Source of the DNA: an uncultured Acidobacteriota bacterium | GTDB lineage: Bacteria > Acidobacteriota > Thermoanaerobaculia > Gp7-AA8 | DNA length: 64,000 bases | Reading direction: 5' to 3' | NCBI GenBank assembly: GCA_963734155.1 | Contig: CAVTGG010000004.1 | Coordinates: forward strand, 323,983-387,982 | In this document: in pieces, positions 4,871-42,920 of the stretch | Position numbering within the stretch: the stretch's first letter is position 1 | Layout: each line of letters opens with the position of its first letter | The notes under the pieces: model-generated | The model's database searches: none | What the model saw: the letters and a program-made list of their open reading frames with translations, nothing else | Told to the model about the DNA's origin: nothing | Made by a program: the position numbers and the translations under genes

Positions 4871-7087
4871 TTGCCTTCGCGAGTACTCCGTCAGTCGCGA
4901 AAGGATCTCCTCGTTCGTCGCCGGCAACCGCAGCCGCGCGATGTCTCCGTTCGCGACGGATTGCAGCGCGTTCTTCACCGCGCACCAGATCGAGATCGCC
5001 ATCAGCAGCGGCGGCTCGCCGACGGCTTTGCTGCCGCGGACGTTGATGGGATTGTCGACGTCGATCCAATCGACGTTGAAGACTTCGGGGACGTCGTTGA
5101 TGTTCGGGATCTTGTACGTCGTCGGCGAGTGCGAGAGCAGCACGCCTTTGTCGTCGTACCGCAGCTCCTCGGTGGTGACCCAGCCCATTCCCTGAACGAA
5201 CGCGCCGATGAGCTGGCCGCGGTCGATGCCGGGATTGATCGGCTTGCCGATGTCCATCAGCACGTCGCTGCGCAGCACTTTCAAATCGCCCGTGAACCGG
5301 TCGATCAGCACTTCGGAACACGCCACGCCCATCGTGAAGTAGAGGAACGGCGTGCCGCGGCCGCTGGTCCAGTCCCAGTCGAGGCGCGGCGTGGCGTAGA
5401 ACCCGCGCTCGCCGAGGGAGACGCGCTCGTGATACGCGAGCTTCACCAGCATCTCCCACGAATCCTGCTTGCCGAGGTGCGCCTCGAGCTCGTCGAGGCG
5501 GAAGCGGATCTTGCGCGCCGCATCGACCGCCGCGCTGCCGTTGAGATCCGCCGCGCTCGAGGCCGCGCTCGCCGACGTGTTGTTGTTCTTCTCCGTCGAC
5601 GTGATCATCACGCTCACGCGCTCGACCGGGATGCGCAGCTCATCGGCGACGAGCTGCCCGATCTTCGTGTTCACGCCCTGCCCCATCTCCGTCGCGCCGG
5701 TCGAGACCTGCACGCTGCCGTCGAGGTAGATGTTCACGAGCGCGTTCGCCTGATTGAGAAACTTCGTGTTGAAGGAGATGCCGAACTTCACCGCGGAAAT
5801 CGAGATGCCTTTGAGCTGCGTCTGTGACGTCGCGTTGAACGCGCGCACCGCTTCGACGCGCGCGCGGTAGTCGCAGCGCTCGGGCAGCTCGGTGAAGAGC
5901 CGAGGCAGCGTGTTGTTCGGAACCACCTCTTCATACGGCGTGGTGTTGCGCGTCTCGACGCCGTAGCAGTTCACGCGGCGCACATCGAGCGCGTCTTTCT
6001 TCAGGAACGCGGCGATCTCTTCGATGATGTTCTCCATCGTCGCCACGCCTTGCGGTCCGCCGAAGCCGCGGAACGCGGTGTTCGGAGGCATGTTCGTGCG
6101 GCAAACCGTGCCGCGGATGTCGATGTTCGCGATGTAGTACGCGTTCTCCGCGTGGGTCATGGCGCGGGCCATGACCGCCGGCGAGAGATCGGCGTACGCG
6201 CCGCCGTCGGAGTAGAAGTCGATCTTCATCCCGACGATCTCGCCGCTGCGCGTGAATCCGACGCGATAGCGGTTCTGAAACGCGTGACGCTTTCCCGTCA
6301 CGTGCATGTCGGTGTCTTTGTCGTAGACGATGCGCGTGGGCCGCTTCGTTTTCTGCGACACGAGCGCAGCCATCGCCGCGGGATGCGTGGCCTGCGCTTC
6401 CTTGCCGCCGAACGCGCCGCCCATCCGCTTGGTCGTGACCACGACCTGATTCATCTGCAGTCCCAGCAGATGCGCGATGACTTCCTGCACCTCGGTCGGA
6501 TGTTGCGTCGAGGACAGCACGTGCATCGCGCCGTTTTCGCCCGGCTGGATGATCGCTGCTTGCGATTCGAGATAGAAGTGATCCTGGCCGAGGTTGCGGA
6601 ACACGCCTTCGAGGACATGCTCGGCGGAGGCGAGCGCAGCGTCGGCATCGCCGCGGCGGATGTAGCGCGTCTCGCCGATGAAGCTCTGCGCGGCGATGGC
6701 GTCGTCGATCTCGAAGATCGGCGTGAGCTCCTCGAATTCGATTTTGACGGCGCGCTTCGCCGCGTCGACCGCTTCGCGCGTTTCCGCGGCGACGACGACG
6801 ATCGGCTGGCCGCGGAACGTGCAGTGGCCGTCGTCGACGAGGAGCGGCTCGTCGGCGATGATCGGACCGAGGCGGTTGTGATGCAGGTCTTCGTGCGTGT
6901 AGACGTGCGCGAGCTTCTTCGCTTCGCTCACATCGAGCGAGACGATGCGCGCGTGGGCGTAGGGCGACCAGACGAAGTCGACGACGAGCTCGCCATGCAG
7001 CGGCGGCAGGTCATCGACATACATCGACTCGCCGGTCACGTGACCGCGCGCGGAATCGTGCGGGATGTCCTTGCCGACGGAGGGCAT
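4862..7087 (-). CDS. xdhB: Xanthine dehydrogenase molybdopterin-binding (large) subunit
   Basis: 741 aa from MPSVGKDIPHDSARGHVTGE. Shows the aldehyde-oxidase/xanthine-dehydrogenase MoCo domain pattern. The ORF-track extension upstream of this Met is GC-rich read-through. Confidence 0.9.
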   Translation of the reverse strand: MPSVGKDIPHDSARGHVTGESMYVDDLPPLHGELVVDFVWSPYAHARIVSLDVSEAKKLAHVYTHEDLHHNRLGPIIADEPLLVDDGHCTFRGQPIVVVAAETREAVDAAKRAVKIEFEELTPIFEIDDAIAAQSFIGETRYIRRGDADAALASAEHVLEGVFRNLGQDHFYLESQAAIIQPGENGAMHVLSSTQHPTEVQEVIAHLLGLQMNQVVVTTKRMGGAFGGKEAQATHPAAMAALVSQKTKRPTRIVYDKDTDMHVTGKRHAFQNRYRVGFTRSGEIVGMKIDFYSDGGAYADLSPAVMARAMTHAENAYYIANIDIRGTVCRTNMPPNTAFRGFGGPQGVATMENIIEEIAAFLKKDALDVRRVNCYGVETRNTTPYEEVVPNNTLPRLFTELPERCDYRARVEAVRAFNATSQTQLKGISISAVKFGISFNTKFLNQANALVNIYLDGSVQVSTGATEMGQGVNTKIGQLVADELRIPVERVSVMITSTEKNNNTSASAASSAADLNGSAAVDAARKIRFRLDELEAHLGKQDSWEMLVKLAYHERVSLGERGFYATPRLDWDWTSGRGTPFLYFTMGVACSEVLIDRFTGDLKVLRSDVLMDIGKPINPGIDRGQLIGAFVQGMGWVTTEELRYDDKGVLLSHSPTTYKIPNINDVPEVFNVDWIDVDNPINVRGSKAVGEPPLLMAISIWCAVKNALQSVANGDIARLRLPATNEEILSRLTEYSRRQQQ

Positions 7088-37009: not shown

Positions 37010-38225
37010 TCACATGAGCGGCAACGTCGCGGCCGCCCGCGACGAAATCCGCTTCGCGAAATCCTGCGGCGTCAGCACGCGCACCTCACCCGTGTACGCG
37101 TAATTGCGATCGAGCAAATCGCTGTACGTGAGATCGAGCTTGAACGTGCCGGCCAACGGCATCGTCTTCGAGACCTTCGTCCCACTGCTCGCCGTCGCGC
37201 CGTCGAGCTTCCACGCGAAGTTCTTCGCCACGTGCGGGATGTCTGCGCCCGCCGCTTCCCACTGCGCGACGAGATTCAGCGTCTCACCCGTGCGCAGCAC
37301 CCGGCGTCCGATGAATTCCGCGACGCGGTTCGCCTCGGGATAGAGGATGTGCAGCGCGAGGCGGTCGAAGTCCGAAGAGGCCGGTGTTCGCGTAGTTGCC
37401 CGGCGCGAAGCTCATCGTCTCGGGCCAGGTATAGTGCATGACAGACAGCGGATCGTACGGCGTGAGGAAGAACGTCGCGCCGCCGCCGTAAATCGGCACA
37501 TTCGCGTCCTCTGCTTTCTTCGCGTTGTCCTTCAGCGCCGTCGCCGCGGCGACGGTGCGTGAATCCCGGAATCTTCTGCAGGTCCGACACCGCCGCGTCC
37601 GAGACCCACGCGACGTTGCGATAGCCGGCGTCGTAAATCGCCTTCGCTTTCGTCGCATCGACGCCGGCGATCTTCTGGAAGAACGTCAGCACCTGATCCT
37701 TGCGGACGTCCATGCGCTCGTGCTCGTGCGACAGACCGAGGGCATGACCGAACTCGTGAAGCGGATGGTTGATGAACGGCGATCGCGCCGCCGGATGGAT
37801 CGCCGAAGCCCGCACGTGGTGAAACTGTCGTTGCCGAGGTGCATGTTGAACACGCAAGGGCGGTTCGCGGCGAATTCGGCAGGACTGTTCGACCAGCCGC
37901 CGCCGAGTCCCGGATCGCTATCGGGCATCCCTTGCCCGGCACCGGCTTGAACTTGGCGAAGAGACTTCCATCCGTGTCCGGAACCACGACGCGGATGTCT
38001 TCGAGCCAGAAGTCGTTGCCGTTCGCCTGCGGCTGGTTCGTGCAGCTCGCTTTGTAGGTCGAAGCGGATATTCGCCGCGTACTCGAACTGCTTCAGCACT
38101 TCCTTGATCTGCGCGATGCGATCCGCGCGCGCGGTGCCGCCGGTGCCGGCGAAGCAGACCGTCGGCGTCGCGCCGCGCACGCCCGACTCCCAGTACAGCG
38201 CCGCAACGAGGACGAGCGCGTGCAT
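37010..38225 (-). pseudogene. Astacin-like (M12A) zinc metalloprotease, secreted, disrupted by at least three frameshifts
   Basis: Signal peptide MHALVLVAALYW. HEFGHALGLSHEHERMD zinc-binding motif and SVMHY Met-turn lie in different frames (ORFs 37686..38258, 37276..37857, 37284..37658, 37010..37300). Confidence 0.55.
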
Positions 38226-38568
38226 CAGAACATCTCCAGCGCCATCGCGCGGCGGCAATCACTCGTCGCGCAGCCGAAGCCCGCGCCGCTCAGATCAGCC
38301 GGATCGTACTGAATCTTCAGAGTCCGTCCCGCGACGAGCGCGGAGGTGGCGACGCTGACGAAGCGCGCTGCCTGCGCCGCATCGGTCGTCGGGAGGGCGA
38401 AGAAGAGAATGCCGCCGCTGACCGTCGCCGAGCATCGCACGTGAACGCGGTTCGAGAACGTCGCCACCGCCGGCTGGCGTGCAATCCGACCCACTGAACC
38501 GCCGCCGATGCCTGCGACGCCATTCCAAGAACCACGAGAGCAAAGGTCACCCAGAGCGTTTTCTTCAT
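38225..38568 (-). CDS. Small secreted protein (signal peptide MKKTLWVTFALVVLGMASQASA), apparently frameshifted; stop overlaps the astacin start (TGATG)
   Basis: N-terminus in ORF 38317..38622, C-terminus (GRIARQPAVATFSNRVHVRCSATVSGG...CATSDCRRAMALEMF) in ORF 38225..38494. Confidence 0.4.
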
Positions 38569-38625
38569 AACGAATCTCTCCTTTTCTCCGGGATAGTGAA
38601 GAAAACGCGGAAAACGTTTCAAACG

Positions 38626-39816
38626 CTATTGCGGTTTTTCGCCGACGTACCGCGCGCGCGGCCGGATCATCGCATCCTGCGCGTACTGCTCGATGGCGTG
38701 CGCGATCCAGCCGATGGTGCGGCCGAGGGCGAAGAGCGCGAGCGCGCTGCCGGGCGGGAGGCCGATGACGCGCGAGAGCGCGACGAGCGCAAAGTCGACG
38801 GTCGGCTTCTCGCCGAGGACGCGCTGCGCCGCGGCGGCGAACGCGTGCGCGAACGCGAGCTCCTTCGATTTCGGAAAGCTCTCGTCCAGCAGCTCGAGCA
38901 GCAGCGCCGCGCGCGGATCGCCTTTCGGATAGAGCGGATGGCCGAAGCCTTCGATGCGCTCGCCGCGGCGGAGGCGATCGGCAAGTGATTTGGCGAGATC
39001 GCGCGCGCGGCGGAGATCGTCGAACAGCACCTCGACGCGCGCCGTCGCGCCGCCGTGCTTCGAGCCTTCGAGCGCCGCGAGCCCGCCGAGGACCGCGGCA
39101 TACGGATTCGCGCAGGACGATGCGATGCAGCGCGCGGTGAACGCGGAGACGTTCAGCTCATGGTCGGCGATCAGAATCAGCGCCGCGCGGATCAGCGCCG
39201 GCGCGCGCTTCACCTTCGGCGCCCACGCCTGCGCGAGCGTGTCGTCGATCGTCGGCGCGAGCTCGCGCGTCGATGCGGCGACGCTGGTCAGCAGGTTGAG
39301 AATCCGCCAGCCGGTTTGCGCGACGGCGCGCGGGCGGAGGTCGAACGCGAGCGGATCGCGCGCGGCGACGATCGGCAGAATCGATTGCGCGCGGTTGATG
39401 AACGGCAGGTCATTCGTCGCCGCGCCTCCGACGACATGCAGCGGCGTATCGAACAGCGTGTCGTCGAACGCGCCGGTCCAGATCAGCGAGGCCGCCTCTT
39501 CGATCGAGTGCTCGCGCGCGAGCGTGGCGACGTCGTGGCCGCGGTAGTACAGCTTGCCGTCGGTGATGAGCGTGATCGACGACTCGAGGATCGGAACGCC
39601 CCAGCGCAGCGCATTCTCCGCGGCTTTCTCCGGATTCCGCCGCTCCTCCGCGCGCTTGCGCAGCCGCTCCACGTCCTCCCGCGCATACCGCTTCAGCCTC
39701 GGCTTCCCGGGCACGGCCTCGGAGCGGAGGAAGCCGCGGCTGACGTACGCGTACAGCGTGGCCCGGCTCACGCCGAGGAGCCTCGTAGCCTGGTTCGCAT
39801 CGATCCATGCAGCCAT
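38626..39816 (-). CDS. Citrate-synthase-like protein with N-terminal excisionase/MerR-type HTH
   Basis: MAAWIDANQATRLLGVSRATLYAYVSRGFL HTH, then a citrate synthase fold (GFGHPLYPKGDPRA; HGGATARV). 396 aa from Met85 of the listed ORF. Confidence 0.7.
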   Translation of the reverse strand: MAAWIDANQATRLLGVSRATLYAYVSRGFLRSEAVPGKPRLKRYAREDVERLRKRAEERRNPEKAAENALRWGVPILESSITLITDGKLYYRGHDVATLAREHSIEEAASLIWTGAFDDTLFDTPLHVVGGAATNDLPFINRAQSILPIVAARDPLAFDLRPRAVAQTGWRILNLLTSVAASTRELAPTIDDTLAQAWAPKVKRAPALIRAALILIADHELNVSAFTARCIASSCANPYAAVLGGLAALEGSKHGGATARVEVLFDDLRRARDLAKSLADRLRRGERIEGFGHPLYPKGDPRAALLLELLDESFPKSKELAFAHAFAAAAQRVLGEKPTVDFALVALSRVIGLPPGSALALFALGRTIGWIAHAIEQYAQDAMIRPRARYVGEKPQ

Positions 39817-39820
39817 TAGG

Positions 39821-39854
39821 TTGATTATAGAATCAATATTGACATCAATGTCAA
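39821..39854. promoter_or_regulatory. Two palindromes in the 51-bp divergent intergenic region: TTGATTATAGAATCAA and perfect TTGACATCAATGTCAA (candidate operator)
   Basis: ttgattatagaatcaatattgacatcaatgtcaa sits between the HTH-citrate-synthase-like gene and the divergent citrate-synthase-like gene. Confidence 0.55.
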
Positions 39855-39867
39855 CCACCCCTACGTT

Positions 39868-40944
39868 ATGAAGAGCATGACGAACGTACACAACGGACTG
39901 GAAGGCATCGTCGCCGCGGAGACGCGGCTGAGCATGGTCGACGGCGAGCGCGGCGAGTTGGTGATCGCGGGATACCGCGTCGAGGATCTCGCGCCGCGGT
40001 TCACGTTCGAGGAGACGGTGAACCTGTTGTTTGACGCTGCAGGTTTCGGAGTGCGGTGGCAGAGCCACCGCTATCTGAAAGCGGCGGCAGAGCCGCCGCA
40101 GTCCATACCGCTGATGGACGCGCTGCGCATGGGCGCTGCCTCACTGAGCGCGGAGAACGACGAAGAAGCCGCAGTGATGCTCCTCGCCGCCTTCCCCGTC
40201 ATCGTCGCCAGCCACTGGCGGCGGCAAAACGGTCAGGAGCCCATCCCACCCCGTGAAGACCTCGGCTACGCCGCGAACTATCTCTACATGCTCACCGGCG
40301 TCGAGCCGCACGCGGAGCTCGTGCGCGGGCTGGAGACCTATCTCAACACCGTCGTCGATCACGGCCTCAACGCGTCGACGTTCACCGCGCGCGTGATCGC
40401 GTCGACCGGCTCCGATCTCATCTCCGCGATCACCGGCGCGATCGGCGCGCTGAAAGGTCCGCTGCACGGCGGCGCGCCCGGTCCCGCGCTCGACATGGTC
40501 TTCGAGATCGGCGAGGCGTCGCGCGCGGAAGACGTGCTGCGCCGTAAGATCGAGTCGGGCGAGCGTCTGATGGGCTTCGGCCATCGCGTCTACAAAGTGC
40601 GCGATCCGCGCGCCGATGTTCTCGCCGCTGCCGCCGAGCGGATGTTCACGCGCGCCGGCGACATGCGTCTCTACGAGCTCGCGCGCTCGGTCGAAGCGAC
40701 GGCGCTGCGCCTCCTCGAAGAGTACAAACCGGGCCGCCGCCTGCAGACGAACGTCGAGTTCTACACCGCGCTCCTCCTCCACGGCCTCGGCCTCGAGGTT
40801 CCGCTGTTCACGCCGACGTTCGCCATCAGCCGCGTCGCCGGCTGGATCGCGCACTGCATCGAGCAGCGCCGCACCGGCCGCATCATCCGCCCGCAGTCGG
40901 TGTACGTCGGCGAGATGCGTACAATCGCGGCATGCGTCGTCTGA
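39868..40944 (+). CDS. Citrate synthase family protein (short ~358 aa; citrate/2-methylcitrate synthase or citryl-CoA lyase-like); contains an in-frame repeat family 4 element
   Basis: GFGHRVYKVRDPRA, HGGAPG and DHGLNASTF motifs. Element at 40048-40104 encodes ...GFGVRWQSHRYLKAAAEPPQS... Confidence 0.75.
   Translation: MKSMTNVHNGLEGIVAAETRLSMVDGERGELVIAGYRVEDLAPRFTFEETVNLLFDAAGFGVRWQSHRYLKAAAEPPQSIPLMDALRMGAASLSAENDEEAAVMLLAAFPVIVASHWRRQNGQEPIPPREDLGYAANYLYMLTGVEPHAELVRGLETYLNTVVDHGLNASTFTARVIASTGSDLISAITGAIGALKGPLHGGAPGPALDMVFEIGEASRAEDVLRRKIESGERLMGFGHRVYKVRDPRADVLAAAAERMFTRAGDMRLYELARSVEATALRLLEEYKPGRRLQTNVEFYTALLLHGLGLEVPLFTPTFAISRVAGWIAHCIEQRRTGRIIRPQSVYVGEMRTIAACVV
40048..40104. repeat. 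Repeat family 4 double-hairpin copy inside the citrate-synthase-like coding sequence
   Basis: ggagtgcggtggcagagccaccgc tatctgaaa gcggcggcagagccgccgcagtcc. Confidence 0.7.
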
Positions 40945-42200
40945 TCGTTGCCCTTCTCTTCGCTGTCGCTGCATTCGCCGAGGAGCCCGTCACCGTCATC
41001 CGCGCCGCGCGCATGATCGACGGCACCGGCGCGCCTGCGGTGCAGAACGCGGTCGTCGTCATCACCGGCAACAAAATCACGTCGATCGGCGGCCCGGTTC
41101 CGAAGAACGCGACCGTGATCGACCTCGGCGACGTGACGCTGTTGCCCGGCTTCATCGACGCGCACACGCATCTCATCGGCCGCGTCCTCGGCGAGGACGG
41201 CTGGAACGACTCGGCGGTGCGCGACTACGAGGGCTACACCGCTGTACGCGCGGTCGGGCACGCGGAGAAGACGCTGCTCGCCGGCATCACCACCGTGCGC
41301 AACGTCGGCGCGGAGCGTTTTCACGACATGGCGCTGCGCAAGGCCATCGAAGAAGGCTACGTGCGCGGGCCGCGCATGCAGAACGCCGGCTACGCGCTCA
41401 GCATCACCGGCGGGCACTGCGACGAAAACGGCTATCGTCCCGGCCTGCTCGACGGCACGGTTCGCGAAGGCATCGCGAACGGACCCGACGAAGTGCGCGC
41501 CGCCGTGCGCTACATGGCGAAGTACGGCGCGGACGTGATCAAGACCTGCGCGACCGGCGGCGTGCTCTCCGAGGGAGATGCGGTCGGCGCGCCGCAGTAC
41601 ACGTTCGAAGAAATGAAGGCGATCGTCGACGAAGCGACGAAGCTCGAGCGCAAAGTCGCGGCGCACGCGCACGGCACGGAAGGAATCAAGATCGCCGTGC
41701 GCGCGGGCGTCGCATCGATCGAGCACGGCTCGTTTCTCGACGAAGAAGGCGCGCGGATGATGGCCGAGCGCGGAACGTTTCTCGTGCCGACGATCTCCGC
41801 CGGCGAGTTCGTGGAAAAGGCGGCGAAGGCGAACGTGCTCACCGGGCTGCGCAAAGAGAAAGCATTGATGGCCGCGGCGGCGATGCGCAACGCGATCAAG
41901 CTCGCGGTGAAGTACCACGTGCCGATCGCGATGGGCACCGACGCCGGCGTCGGCCCGCACGGCGCGAACATGCACGAGCTGAAGCTGCTGGTCGACTGGG
42001 GCGGCATGCGGCCGCTCGATGCGATCACCGCGGCGACGATGGGCGGCGCGCGCCTTCTCGGGTGGGAGAAACGGATCGGCTCGATCGAGGCCGGCAAGCT
42101 CGCCGATCTCATCGCCGTGCCGGGCGACCCGCTCGCCGACATCACGCGGCTGGACAACGTCGCGTTCGTGATGAAGGACGGCAAGGTTTACAAGCGCTGA
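40932..42200 (+). CDS. Secreted metal-dependent amidohydrolase (imidazolonepropionase/Xaa-Pro-dipeptidase-like)
   Basis: Signal peptide; PGFIDAHTHL; TPHB... full amidohydrolase barrel; HGTEGIKIAV...; DAG... motifs. Confidence 0.75.
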   Translation: MRRLIVALLFAVAAFAEEPVTVIRAARMIDGTGAPAVQNAVVVITGNKITSIGGPVPKNATVIDLGDVTLLPGFIDAHTHLIGRVLGEDGWNDSAVRDYEGYTAVRAVGHAEKTLLAGITTVRNVGAERFHDMALRKAIEEGYVRGPRMQNAGYALSITGGHCDENGYRPGLLDGTVREGIANGPDEVRAAVRYMAKYGADVIKTCATGGVLSEGDAVGAPQYTFEEMKAIVDEATKLERKVAAHAHGTEGIKIAVRAGVASIEHGSFLDEEGARMMAERGTFLVPTISAGEFVEKAAKANVLTGLRKEKALMAAAAMRNAIKLAVKYHVPIAMGTDAGVGPHGANMHELKLLVDWGGMRPLDAITAATMGGARLLGWEKRIGSIEAGKLADLIAVPGDPLADITRLDNVAFVMKDGKVYKR

Positions 42201-42248: not shown

Positions 42249-42524
42249 ATGTTCGAACTGCTCGCACTCTTCATCGTAGTCGCGATCACCGGCGGCGTGG
42301 TCGTCGGCGTAATGGCGCTGGCGTTCGCGCTCGTGAAGTTCACGTTCAAGCTGGCGCTGCTGCCGCTGAAACTCATTCTCTTCCCGTTGATCGCGGTCTT
42401 CGTCATCGTGAAATTCGCGGTGCTGCTCGCGCTCGGCGTCACGGTTGCGGCGGTCGCTCTCGCCTTCGTGATCGTGGTCGCGGTCCTGGTGGCGCCCTTC
42501 GCGCTGATCGCGTGGCTGACTTAA
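42249..42524 (+). CDS. Small hydrophobic membrane protein (91 aa)
   Basis: GGAGG SD 8 nt upstream; entirely TM-like sequence. Confidence 0.4.
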   Translation: MFELLALFIVVAITGGVVVGVMALAFALVKFTFKLALLPLKLILFPLIAVFVIVKFAVLLALGVTVAAVALAFVIVVAVLVAPFALIAWLT

Positions 42525-42551
42525 GGACGAGTCCGCGTATCATTACGCGCC

Positions 42552-42920
42552 GTGACAGAGAAGAAGCGTGCGCTCGTCGTCGACGACGATGATCCGATCC
42601 GGGCAATGCTGGCAAAAGTCGTCGAGCGGCAGAACCTCGCCGTCGACACCGCACGCGACGGCGCCGAGGCCATCCAGCGCATCGACGCCAACAACTACTC
42701 CGTCATCCTCCTCGACCTGATGATGCCGCGCATCGACGGCTACGGCGTCCTCAAGCACATGAACTCCCACTGCCCCGAGAAGCTCGGCTGCACCATCATC
42801 GCGTCCGCCGTTCCCGAGACCGAGATCCTCAAGCGCTTCAACCTGCCGGTCTTTCGCATCCACGCGAAGCCGTTCGACCTCGGCAAGCTGATCGAAGACA
42901 TCAAAGAGTGCGTCGGGTAA
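42552..42920 (+). CDS. Single-domain response regulator (CheY-like receiver), paralog of 22443..22865
   Basis: ALVVDDDDPIRAML...VILLDLMMPRIDG...KPFD. Confidence 0.8.
   Translation: MTEKKRALVVDDDDPIRAMLAKVVERQNLAVDTARDGAEAIQRIDANNYSVILLDLMMPRIDGYGVLKHMNSHCPEKLGCTIIASAVPETEILKRFNLPVFRIHAKPFDLGKLIEDIKECVG

What the first reader, a model, noticed from the sequence alone, without database searches (positions are those of the whole stretch)
38626..40944. Divergent pair of citrate-synthase-like genes, one fused to an HTH, with a palindromic operator between them
The minus-strand gene encodes an excisionase/MerR-type HTH (MAAWIDANQATRLLGVSRATLYAYV) fused to a complete citrate-synthase fold. The plus-strand gene, 51 bp away, is a paralogous short citrate synthase. 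The gap contains the perfect palindrome TTGACATCAATGTCAA and the near-palindrome TTGATTATAGAATCAA. This arrangement suggests a metabolite-sensing enzyme-derived regulator that controls its own promoter and its paralogue. A secreted amidohydrolase, a small membrane protein and a response regulator follow.
Basis: partly seen in the sequence, partly recalled or inferred. Interest (0 to 1): 0.65.

Follow-up and report, generated by a model that had tools for sequence, protein, structure and literature searches.

The report
Citrate-synthase-fold transcription factor and its operator
A DNA-binding domain fused to a complete citrate-synthase fold sits back-to-back with a minor citrate synthase gene, sharing an operator conserved across at least eight bacterial phyla, which points to a large transcription-factor family that no paper I found describes.

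Summary
Gene 38626-39816 (-) encodes a MerR/excisionase-type winged helix joined by a flexible linker to a full citrate-synthase (CS) fold. Gene 39868-40944 (+), 51 bp away, is a CitA-type short CS.

The fusion belongs to a large family: more than 1,500 clusters at 50% identity and at least 598 species genomes. Databases call it only "citrate synthase family protein".

In 79 of 85 loci examined, the exact motif TCAA-N2-TTGA-N8/9-TCAA lies just upstream of the fusion gene, always in the same orientation. Shuffled sequence gave none. The far half is specific to this clade.

The divergent partner gene varies:
- a CitA-type CS with Glu in place of the catalytic Asp, in 55 of 85 loci
- a family III CoA-transferase, in about 21
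- an HMGL-like enzyme, in a few

The fusion keeps the His/His/Asp triad in more than 90% of members. Caulobacter CitC, which primer sequences place in this family, fails to complement an E. coli gltA mutant, while its neighbour CitB does.

Best reading: a metabolite-sensing one-component regulator that controls itself and the divergent acyl-CoA enzyme gene. DNA binding, the ligand and the direction of control are inferred, not shown.

The parts
38626..39816 (-). HTH-citrate-synthase fusion gene (396 aa plus stop), the CitC-type regulator
   Evidence: ORF and Pfam. Homologues of 66-96% identity share the same start. AlphaFold2 model pLDDT 92.9.
39637..39807 (-). Winged helix-turn-helix, residues 4-60, with the order strand-helix-helix-strand-strand-helix. 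The recognition helix is TLYAYVSRG.
   Evidence: Pfam HTH_17 and MerR_1. Domain model pLDDT 91.6. Foldseek finds Pukovnik Xis, BldC, SoxR, RacA, GlnR and NmlR. A profile search of PDB finds SoxR at E=0.0076. Invariant residues Y22, Y24, V25, S26, R27, G28.
39577..39636 (-). Linker, residues 61-80, with low predicted confidence
   Evidence: pLDDT of 50-66 for the blocks covering residues 61-80, and below 50 for residues 68-73.
38629..39576 (-). Citrate-synthase-fold effector domain, residues 81-396. It keeps H219, N222, R229, H254, H293, D300, R302, D341 and R385.
   Evidence: Pfam Citrate_synt. PDB alignments place KHGGA, GFGHPLY and PTVDF on the catalytic motifs. Foldseek target-normalised TM-score about 0.75 to PrpC and CitA structures. 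Residue counts over 149 family members.
39821..39842 (-). Family-wide operator motif TCAATATTGATTCTATAATCAA. It comprises dyad 1 (39821-39836) plus a third half-site.
   Evidence: Exact match and unique in the window. The same motif class appears upstream of the fusion gene in 79 of 85 loci, against 0 in shuffles.
39839..39854 (.). Dyad 2, TTGACAT-ca-ATGTCAA. It is a complete second TTGA-N8-TCAA site only in this clade.
   Evidence: L001 keeps it. L002 keeps the symmetry through two paired changes, TTGACGAttTCGTCAt. The distal half is variable in other phyla.
39839..39867 (+). Putative promoter of the paralogue: TTGACA, 17 bp, TACGTT, ending 0-9 nt before the candidate start codons, which suggests a leaderless mRNA (inferred)
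   Evidence: Read from the sequence. The same geometry occurs in L001 and L002. TAnnnT lies 17 bp from the TTGA(C/T) element in only 28 of 77 loci. The tool's stricter scan reports no promoter here.
39824..39854 (-). Putative promoter of the fusion gene: TTGACA (39854-39849), 19 bp, TATAAT (39829-39824), then 7 nt to the ATG (inferred)
   Evidence: Read from the sequence. The scan did not call it because the spacer exceeds 18 bp.
39868..40944 (+). CitA/CitB-type short citrate synthase (358 aa) with Glu at the position of the catalytic Asp (TNVEFY)
   Evidence: Pfam E=3.9e-105. NCBIfam NF009005 scores 355 bits against a cut-off of 332. The best PDB match is B. subtilis CitA, 2c6x, at 4e-86, with the same NVEFY. 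Glu occurs in 46 of 51 divergent partners.
40932..42200 (+). Amidohydrolase with a signal-like N-terminus. Its start overlaps the CS stop by 13 nt, so it is probably co-transcribed. Close relatives lack it at this position.
   Evidence: Pfam Amidohydro_1. NCBIfam Xaa-Pro dipeptidase scores 441 bits, below its cut-off of 500. Absent in L001 and L002.
42249..42524 (+). Small hydrophobic protein (91 aa). A gene of similar size sits downstream of the CS in Thermoanaerobaculia relatives.
   Evidence: No Pfam hit. ORFs of 94-95 aa occupy the same position in L001 and L002.
42552..42920 (+). Receiver-only response regulator (122 aa). It is a neighbour in this clade only.
   Evidence: Pfam Response_reg E=1e-18. 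Present in L001 and L002. No terminator is predicted between 40944 and 42920.

Best explanation
The minus-strand gene encodes a one-component transcription factor. Its effector domain is a complete citrate-synthase fold.

Proposed mechanism, with my probability for each step:
1. The CS fold dimerises, as citrate synthases do (established knowledge of the family, not tested here). The dimer presents two MerR/excisionase-type winged helices on flexible linkers of about 20 residues.
2. The helices bind the operator GTCAAT-a-TTGATT-N4-AATCAA at 39821-39842. In this clade a second adjacent dyad (39839-39854) probably takes a second dimer. That the protein binds this operator and regulates both divergent genes: about 0.8.
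3. The operator overlaps the likely -35 of the divergent CitA-type citrate synthase promoter. It also overlaps the -10 and start region of the regulator's own gene. Binding therefore most likely represses both: about 0.55 for repression against activation.
4. A CS-type ligand occupies the conserved pocket. Candidates are oxaloacetate or another 2-oxo or hydroxy di- or tricarboxylate, and/or an acyl-CoA or CoA. The well-known open-to-closed domain movement of citrate synthases then repositions the helices and changes DNA affinity. That the signal is a CS-type substrate or product: about 0.5.

The output is expression of the secondary citrate synthase. In this window that also includes the co-transcribed amidohydrolase, and probably the small membrane protein and the response regulator.

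Shown here: the domain architecture and fold, the size of the family, the conserved synteny, the conserved operator and its position, and conservation of the pocket residues. Inferred: DNA binding, the oligomeric state, the ligand, and the direction of control.
For: Architecture and fold.

Family size:
- 1,542 clusters at 50% identity match the HTH plus N-terminal part at E<=1e-10.
- At least 598 loci occur in species-representative genomes.

Operator:
- The exact TCAA-N2-TTGA-N8/9-TCAA motif sits upstream of the fusion gene, in the same orientation, in 79 of 85 loci, with 77 distinct sequence contexts.
- There are 80 matches in 577 kb, against 0 in 20 shuffles.
- It is also present in Agrobacterium fabrum C58 pAt, a Caulobacter sp. 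and a Deinococcus plasmid. A variant with shorter spacing occurs in Embleya.
- The recognition helix is nearly invariant, in parallel with the operator.
- In L002, dyad 2 keeps its symmetry through two paired substitutions.

Targets are all enzymes that act on acyl-CoA or 2-oxo-acid substrates:
- CitA-type CS in 55 of 85 loci
- CoA_transf_3 in about 21
- HMGL-like in Ktedonobacter and Deinococcus
- Acyl-CoA thioesterases lie nearby in Caulobacter.

Pocket residues are conserved in 149 members: H219 in 143, R229 in 148, H254 in 141, H293 in 136 of 142, R302 in 142 of 142, D341 in 132 of 141, R385 in 140 of 140.

Functional hint: Caulobacter citC does not complement E. coli gltA, while the adjacent citB does (PMC7083601). 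The primers give CitC the N-terminus MTDWMDAEQVL and the C-terminus AGYSPSSSS. These match Caulobacter family members P0405 and P0395.
Against: - There is no experimental evidence of DNA binding or ligand response for any member of the family.
- The catalytic triad is kept in more than 90% of members. That is more than a pure sensor would need, so residual or different catalysis cannot be excluded.
- The promoter assignments are weak. The tool's sigma-70 scan finds nothing in the gap. A -10-like TAnnnT at the expected spacing exists in only 28-37 of 77 loci.
- Which half-sites pair with one dimer is unresolved. TCAA-N2-TTGA has constant spacing, while TTGA-N8/9-TCAA varies.
- The oligomeric state and the geometry of the helices relative to the CS dimer were not modelled.
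- The CitC link rests on 20 residues deduced from primer sequences.
Confidence: 0.7

Rival explanations
1. Bifunctional 'trigger enzyme'. The fusion is still an active citrate, methylcitrate or related acyl-CoA condensing enzyme, or a citryl-CoA-type lyase. The HTH only adds autoregulation, as in PutA or BirA. Turnover, not mere binding, sets the DNA-binding state.
For: His/His/Asp and the substrate-binding His and Arg residues are kept in more than 90% of 149 members. The CS fold is complete and predicted with high confidence.
Against: Caulobacter CitC does not rescue E. coli gltA although it keeps the triad. The N-terminal half of the CS domain has diverged: Pfam matches it in two stretches, and every NCBIfam CS model scores far below its cut-off, for example 164 bits against 332. 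Failure to complement could also reflect poor expression or a different substrate.
Confidence: 0.2
2. MerR-style activator. The protein stays bound and, when liganded, remodels a promoter with an over-long spacer, as SoxR, CueR and MerR do, rather than acting as a simple repressor.
For: The HTH passes the Pfam MerR_1 cut-off. Its best PDB profile hit is SoxR. On the minus strand, TTGACA and TATAAT are 19 bp apart with the palindrome TCAATATTGA centred between them.
Against: The model shows no MerR-type coiled-coil dimerisation helix; the HTH is followed by a floppy linker and the CS fold. The paralogue's putative promoter has an optimal 17-bp spacer. The distal TTGACA that gives the 19-bp geometry is not conserved outside this clade. 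The structural match to Xis and BldC is as good as the match to SoxR.
Confidence: 0.15
3. There is no dedicated operator. The palindromes are only back-to-back -35 and -10 promoter elements of two divergent genes, and the HTH has some other role.
For: TTGACA and TATAAT/TAGAAT can be read on both strands of the gap. The third half-site reads TTGAC or TTGAT toward the divergent gene in all loci.
Against: The exact 12-base motif, with fixed orientation relative to the fusion gene, is conserved across many phyla with different promoter usage and different divergent genes, and is absent from shuffles. Conserved positions extend beyond any -35 or -10 hexamer. Conservation tracks the presence of the fusion gene and not the identity of the partner gene.
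Confidence: 0.04
4. The HTH is an excisionase or recombination-directionality domain of a mobile element, fused by chance to a citrate synthase.
For: There is a Pfam HTH_17 hit. The best structural match is a phage Xis.
Against: No integrase or other mobile-element gene flanks the pair here or in relatives. The chromosomal synteny is stable across phyla. The family has thousands of members with the same architecture.
Confidence: 0.01

Closest known systems
Caulobacter crescentus citB (CCNA_03757) and citC (CCNA_03758), from Berge et al. 2020, eLife (PMC7083601)
   Same: This is the same module. A Caulobacter sp. locus has a CitB-like CS (MSDGLEGV..., TNVEFY) divergent from an HTH-CS fusion, with GTCAATCTTGATCAATATAATCAAT between them. 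The CitC termini deduced from the paper's primers match these family members.
   Different: The paper treats CitC only as a citrate synthase paralogue that fails to complement gltA. It mentions no DNA-binding domain and no regulatory role. The identity of CitC with the family rests on 20 residues. The NA1000 sequence itself was not available to me.
Bacillus subtilis citA-citR (from my own knowledge: Jin and Sonenshein 1994)
   Same: A minor, CitA-type citrate synthase is controlled by a dedicated regulator gene transcribed divergently from it. The best PDB match of the window paralogue is B. subtilis CitA, 2c6x, with the same NVEFY motif.
   Different: CitR is a LysR-type regulator. Here the regulator's sensor domain is itself a citrate-synthase fold.
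MocR/GabR-type regulators, which fuse a GntR HTH to a full aminotransferase fold (from my own knowledge)
   Same: The logic is the same. A DNA-binding domain is fused through a linker to a complete, dimeric enzyme fold that keeps its active-site residues and is used as the effector-sensing module, often next to the genes it regulates.
   Different: The HTH class and the enzyme fold both differ. GabR's chemistry is established, while nothing has been tested for this family.
MerR superfamily winged helices (SoxR, BldC, RacA, GlnR/TnrA) and phage Xis
   Same: The N-terminal domain has this fold and weak sequence similarity to it. Its operator is made of short inverted half-sites.
   Different: It has no MerR coiled-coil and effector module. 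It is not a stand-alone small protein like BldC or Xis. No integrase is present.
Trigger enzymes with their own DNA-binding domain (PutA, BirA, NadR), from my own knowledge and as cited in PMC7083601
   Same: An enzyme fold and a DNA-binding domain lie in one chain, linking metabolism to transcription.
   Different: Those proteins are proven enzymes. Here the one indirect test, on CitC, argues against ordinary citrate synthase activity.

Membership tests
Citrate synthase superfamily (Pfam PF00285) | HMM score above the gathering threshold | tested here: met
   The fusion scores 216 bits and the paralogue 352 bits, against a cut-off of 27.
Citrate synthase superfamily (Pfam PF00285) | Complete two-domain, all-helical CS fold | tested here: met
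   The AlphaFold2 model has pLDDT 92.9. Foldseek gives a target-normalised TM-score of about 0.75 to PrpC (3hwk), Mtb CitA (8s9d) and 2c6x.
Citrate synthase superfamily (Pfam PF00285) | Catalytic His-His-Asp triad (pig H274, H320, D375) | tested here: met
   The fusion has H254, H293 and D341 aligned to the motifs of 2p2w, and they are kept in more than 90% of 149 members. The paralogue has His, His and Glu (NVEFY), as does 2c6x. For the paralogue alone this feature is not met in the strict sense.
Citrate synthase superfamily (Pfam PF00285) | Citrate synthase activity | not testable with these tools
   Only indirect evidence exists: Caulobacter CitB complements gltA and CitC does not (PMC7083601).
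NCBIfam NF009005 (PRK12350), the CitA-type citrate synthase subfamily | Score at or above the curated cut-off of 332 bits | tested here: met
   The paralogue scores 355.2 bits. The fusion scores only 164.4 bits and is not a member.
MerR-family transcription factors | N-terminal winged HTH of the MerR type | tested here: met
   MerR_1 scores 23.1 bits against a cut-off of 21.6. SoxR and TipA are the top PDB profile hits. Foldseek matches SoxR, NmlR, MtaN and CarH.
MerR-family transcription factors | A long coiled-coil dimerisation helix and a C-terminal effector site following the DNA-binding domain | tested here: not met
   The model shows helix 46-60, then a low-confidence linker, then the CS fold.
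MerR-family transcription factors | Operator dyad inside a 19-20 bp promoter spacer | tested here: inconclusive
   A 19-bp spacing can be read for the fusion's own promoter in this window. It is not called by the scan, and the distal -35 is not conserved.
Excisionases and recombination directionality factors (HTH_17, Xis) | Xis-like winged-helix fold | tested here: met
   HTH_17 scores 29.5 bits against a cut-off of 27. Pukovnik Xis gives a target-normalised TM-score of 0.78-0.81 at 35% identity.
Excisionases and recombination directionality factors (HTH_17, Xis) | A small stand-alone protein encoded next to an integrase in a mobile element | tested here: not met
   The domain is fused to a CS domain of about 330 aa. 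The neighbours are peptidases, a CS and a response regulator, and no integrase appears here or in relatives.
One-component regulators with an enzyme-fold sensor (MocR/GabR-like logic) | A DNA-binding domain and a complete enzyme fold in one chain, with a conserved cognate site beside the regulator's own gene | tested here: met
   For the architecture. The operator is present in 79 of 85 loci.
One-component regulators with an enzyme-fold sensor (MocR/GabR-like logic) | Ligand-dependent DNA binding | not testable with these tools
   This needs EMSA or DSF with purified protein.

The most novel reading that the evidence does not exclude
The CS-fold domain is not a passive ligand pocket. It still carries out a slow condensation or thioester chemistry. 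The closed state, bound to an intermediate (citryl-CoA-like), is the state that releases or remodels DNA, so the regulator reports flux and not concentration. Alternatively, because it shares the CS dimer interface, it forms heterodimers with the divergently encoded CitA-type synthase, so that the enzyme titrates its own regulator. Either way this would be a new allosteric principle: the citrate-synthase hinge used as a transcriptional switch, operating with an almost unchanged operator in at least eight phyla.
Probability: 0.15. Interest if true: 0.85.

Novelty: new variant of a known kind. Interest (0 to 1): 0.64.

Why it matters
If this is right, thousands of genes now annotated as "citrate synthase family protein" are in fact transcription factors. 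They include genes in model organisms: Caulobacter citC and Agrobacterium fabrum pAt ATU_RS25370.

The work gives a ready-made operator consensus, (G/A)TCAAT-N-TTGATT-N4/5-AATCAAT. It also gives a predicted regulon theme: secondary citrate synthases, family III CoA-transferases and HMGL-like enzymes.

It offers an explanation for why CitC does not behave as an enzyme in complementation tests. It also offers a new sensor module for acyl-CoA or oxo-acid metabolites that could be built into biosensors.

The near-identical operator and recognition helix across distant phyla are unusual for a bacterial regulator. They make the system easy to test in any of several tractable hosts.

Tried and rejected
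- Four full-text literature searches for an HTH-citrate synthase fusion found no description of it. The only 'citrate synthase-like' hit concerned SCO5831 abundance.
- A profile search with the diverse alignment A1 returned only the same Thermoanaerobaculia clade, so it added no diversity.
- The sigma-70 and terminator scan found nothing in the gap. It found no terminator between the CS and the response regulator. The promoter geometry is therefore my reading of the sequence, not a tool call.
- Rfam found no RNA family in 39600-40100, so a riboswitch or leader RNA is unlikely.
- Two metagenome scans for the 5' end of C. crescentus citC, one exact and one codon-degenerate, found nothing. The link to CitC had to be made through primer-derived peptides and Caulobacter sp. 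homologues.
- The TSS supplements of the Agrobacterium transcriptome paper do not list the locus tags.
- My early impression that catalytic residues are much less conserved than binding residues, based on 35 sequences, did not hold up with 149 sequences. The triad is kept in more than 90%.
- No multimer or DNA-complex modelling was available.
Full report
**Observation.** The ORF list and the sequence confirm two divergent genes separated by 51 bp (39817-39867). The minus-strand ORF is listed from a GTG at 40068, but every homologue begins at the ATG at 39816 (MAAWIDANQ...), so the gene is 38626-39816, 396 aa. Pfam finds HTH_17 (29.5 bits, cut-off 27) and MerR_1 (23.1 bits, cut-off 21.6) at residues 4-53, and Citrate_synt (E=1e-63) in two stretches. 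The plus-strand gene 39868-40944 (358 aa) is a full-length Citrate_synt match (E=3.9e-105). The gap holds three overlapping inverted repeats: TTGATT/AATCAA (39821-39836, 4-nt spacer), TCAATATTGA (39833-39842) and TTGACAT/ATGTCAA (39839-39854, 2-nt spacer). Otherwise the description is accurate.

**The two proteins.** The paralogue passes the curated cut-off of NCBIfam NF009005 (355 bits against 332). Its best solved relative is B. subtilis CitA (2c6x, 4e-86). Both carry NVEFY, with Glu where canonical citrate synthases have the catalytic Asp. The fusion scores far below every curated CS model and resembles the paralogue only over its C-terminal 190 residues, at 37% identity. Even so, alignment to 2p2w places KHGGA, GFGHPLY, DPR, PTVDF and IRPR on the catalytic and substrate-binding motifs.

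An AlphaFold2 model (pLDDT 92.9, pTM 0.81) shows three parts: a strand-helix-helix-strand-strand-helix winged helix (residues 4-60), a low-confidence linker (residues 61-80), and a complete CS fold. Foldseek matches the CS part to PrpC and CitA structures with a target-normalised TM-score of about 0.75. Modelled alone, the N-terminal domain is closest to mycobacteriophage Xis, BldC, SoxR, RacA, GlnR/TnrA and NmlR, which together make up the MerR/excisionase winged-helix superfamily. A sequence profile finds SoxR first, at E=0.0076.

**Family size and spread.** The HTH plus the divergent N-terminal part (residues 1-212) matches 1,542 clusters at 50% identity with E<=1e-10. Most full-length members are 380-420 aa. 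They come from Acidobacteriota, Alpha-, Beta- and Gammaproteobacteria, Chloroflexota, Gemmatimonadota, Myxococcota and Binatia. Plasmid and chromid records add Agrobacterium, Ensifer, Cupriavidus, Deinococcus and the actinomycete Embleya. Source names are only 'citrate synthase', 'citrate/2-methylcitrate synthase' or 'citrate synthase family protein'. I found no paper describing the fusion.

**Synteny.** In 55 of 85 loci, including the window, a short CS lies upstream on the opposite strand. In 49 of the 84 related loci it lies within 400 bp. Of 51 distinct partners, 46 have the TNVEFY Glu variant, and the two His and the two substrate-binding Arg residues are invariant or nearly so. The partner is therefore a specific CitA/CitB-type orthologue.

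Other lineages have different partners:
- In about 21 loci (Burkholderiales, one Terriglobales genome, Telmatospirillum) the divergent gene is a family III CoA-transferase of about 490 aa.
- In Ktedonobacter and a Deinococcus plasmid it is an HMGL-like enzyme.
- In one genome it is a DUF2252 protein.
- In a few genomes an isocitrate/isopropylmalate dehydrogenase-family gene or a PLP-enzyme gene is inserted between the pair.

The common theme is chemistry on acyl-CoA and 2-oxo-acid or hydroxy-acid substrates. Within Thermoanaerobaculia, a 94-95-aa ORF and a receiver-only response regulator follow the CS. The window's amidohydrolase is absent in L001 and L002, so it is not part of the conserved unit.

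**Operator.** Aligning the intergenic regions revealed one motif in nearly all of them: (G/A)TCAAT-(A/C)-TTGATT-N4/5-AATCAAT. The exact pattern TCAA-N2-TTGA-N8/9-TCAA lies upstream of the fusion gene, in the same orientation, in 79 of 85 loci with 77 distinct contexts. There are 80 matches in 577 kb, against none in 20 shuffles. In the window it is an exact match at 39821-39842 and occurs nowhere else in the 64 kb.

The motif is present whatever the divergent gene is. It also occurs in A. fabrum C58 pAt, between ATU_RS25365 and ATU_RS25370, in a Caulobacter sp., and in Deinococcus. Embleya has a variant with shorter spacing, TCAATATTGAcgggaTCAA. Two Myxococcaceae loci have TCAATCTCGATT...ATCAA together with a changed recognition helix, TLYTYVSRG.

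The distal half, TTGACAT, completes a second TTGA-N8-TCAA dyad only in this clade. L001 keeps it. L002 keeps the symmetry through two paired substitutions. Other lineages have variable upstream half-sites. The recognition helix and wing residues (L21, Y22, Y24, V25, S26, R27, G28, S32, R40, Y44) are invariant or nearly so across phyla, in parallel with the conservation of the operator.

**Promoter geometry (inferred).** On the plus strand, TTGACA (39839-39844) is followed after 17 bp by TACGTT (39862-39867), which ends directly at the first ATG and 9 nt before the second. L001 and L002 show the same layout, with the ATG 7-8 nt after the -10-like hexamer. On the minus strand, TTGACA (39854-39849) is followed after 19 bp by TATAAT (39829-39824), and 7 nt later by the ATG. 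Both mRNAs may therefore be leaderless, and the operator would cover the -35 of one promoter and the -10 and spacer of the other. In many loci the operator abuts the fusion's start codon (...ATCAATATG).

This reading is weak. The tool's stricter scan calls no promoter here. A TAnnnT at 17 bp from the TTGA(C/T) element is present in only 28 of 77 loci, or 37 of 77 if 16-18 bp is allowed. No Rfam family matches the region.

**Enzyme or sensor?** Across 149 distinct family members the residues equivalent to pig CS H238, H274, H320, R329, D375 and R401 are kept in 93-100% of cases. That argues for a selected, CS-like ligand pocket, and it does not exclude catalysis.

The one functional datum comes from Caulobacter crescentus. 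The adjacent genes citB (CCNA_03757) and citC (CCNA_03758) were tested in E. coli gltA. citB complemented and citC did not (PMC7083601). The paper's primers give CitC the N-terminus MTDWMDAEQVL and the C-terminus AGYSPSSSS, and give CitB the N-terminus MMSDGLEGV. Caulobacter spp. family members found here read MADWMNAEQVLERLGIRPQTLYAYVSRG...ESYSPSSSS. They sit divergently from a CitB-like CS (MSDGLEGV..., TNVEFY) with the operator between the two genes.

I conclude that CitC is a member of this family. Its HTH went unremarked, and the Glu-variant partner is a working citrate synthase. These CitC-like proteins keep the triad (PLHGG, GFDHPLY, NIDF), so failure to complement suggests the fold is used for something other than bulk citrate synthesis.

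**Mechanism and rivals.** I commit to a one-component, metabolite-responsive regulator. The CS fold dimerises and presents two winged helices that bind the operator. In this clade two adjacent dyads probably take two dimers. Binding most likely represses both divergent promoters, and a CS-type ligand, through the classical open-to-closed domain movement, changes DNA affinity.

The rivals are:
- a true bifunctional trigger enzyme (0.2)
- MerR-style activation through the 19-bp spacer (0.15)
- plain promoter elements with no dedicated operator (0.04)
- a mobile-element excisionase (0.01)

The evidence for and against each is given in the corresponding fields.

**Comparison with what is known, and novelty.** The nearest functional analogues are B. 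subtilis citA-citR, which has the same kind of target but a LysR regulator, and MocR/GabR regulators, which fuse an HTH to a full enzyme fold used as the sensor. The HTH belongs to the MerR/Xis superfamily but lacks the MerR coiled-coil, so the protein is not a MerR-family member in the strict sense. The architecture is visible in domain databases. However, I found no description of it as a regulator, of its operator, or of its link to CitC. I rate it a new variant of a known kind: an enzyme-fold one-component regulator.

Noticed in passing
window 37010-38260 (-): A metzincin-like gene appears broken across at least three reading frames. HEFGHALGLSHEH lies in ORF 37276-37857, a Met-turn-like SVMHY in ORF 37284-37658, and a plausible N-terminal part in ORF 37686-38258. 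The rest of each ORF is Arg-rich out-of-frame sequence. This is either a pseudogene or indel errors in the assembly. Pfam gives only weak Astacin and Peptidase_M10 hits.
   Followed up: partly
window 38225-38622 (-): An ORF with a good signal peptide (MKKTLWVTFALVVLGMASQASA) runs into Arg-rich sequence. A second ORF in another frame (38225-38494) continues with plausible protein sequence, so another frameshift is possible. Neither has a Pfam hit. The roughly 1.7 kb from 37.0 to 38.6 kb is absent in relatives L001 and L002, where the M20 peptidase gene directly follows the fusion gene.
   Followed up: partly
window 39862-39888 (+): The inverted repeat TACGTT/AACGTA brackets both candidate start codons of the paralogue. 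It could be a small hairpin at the 5' end of the mRNA or simply coding constraint. I did not examine it systematically in relatives.
   Followed up: no
L033-L065 (Paraburkholderia loci), about 20 nt downstream of the operator: The operator is followed by a further perfect palindrome, ATCAATATATATTGAT, that shares its last half-site. This gives four half-sites in a different arrangement from the window. A GntR/UTRA regulator gene lies beyond the CoA-transferase.
   Followed up: no
L056 1316-1338 (Uliginosibacterium silvisoli): A second copy of the operator (TCAATCTTGATCGAGTAGATCAA) lies about 1.6 kb from the first, upstream of another minus-strand gene (455-1291). This suggests that regulons can have more than one target.
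   Followed up: no
L075 and L082 (Corallococcus / Myxococcaceae), upstream of 3001: An operator variant with TCGA in place of TTGA (TCAATCTCGATTCGACCATCAA) co-occurs with a changed recognition helix, TLYTYVSRG instead of TLYAYVSRG. This may be co-variation of protein and DNA specificity, but it rests on one clade only.
   Followed up: partly
L085 4887-6164 (Agrobacterium fabrum C58 pAt, ATU_RS25370): The annotated CDS starts one base from the divergent CS start and runs through the operator (4947-4970). The real start is probably the ATG at 4983 or the one at 5005, so the RefSeq model looks over-extended at its N-terminus. An ECF sigma factor, FecR and a TonB-dependent siderophore receptor lie downstream.
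   Followed up: partly
window 42249-42920 (+); L001 4033-4779; L002 3357-4799: A hydrophobic ORF of about 91-95 aa and a receiver-only response regulator are kept downstream of the CitA-type CS in Thermoanaerobaculia, but not in other phyla. Their relation to the CS is unknown.
   Followed up: partly
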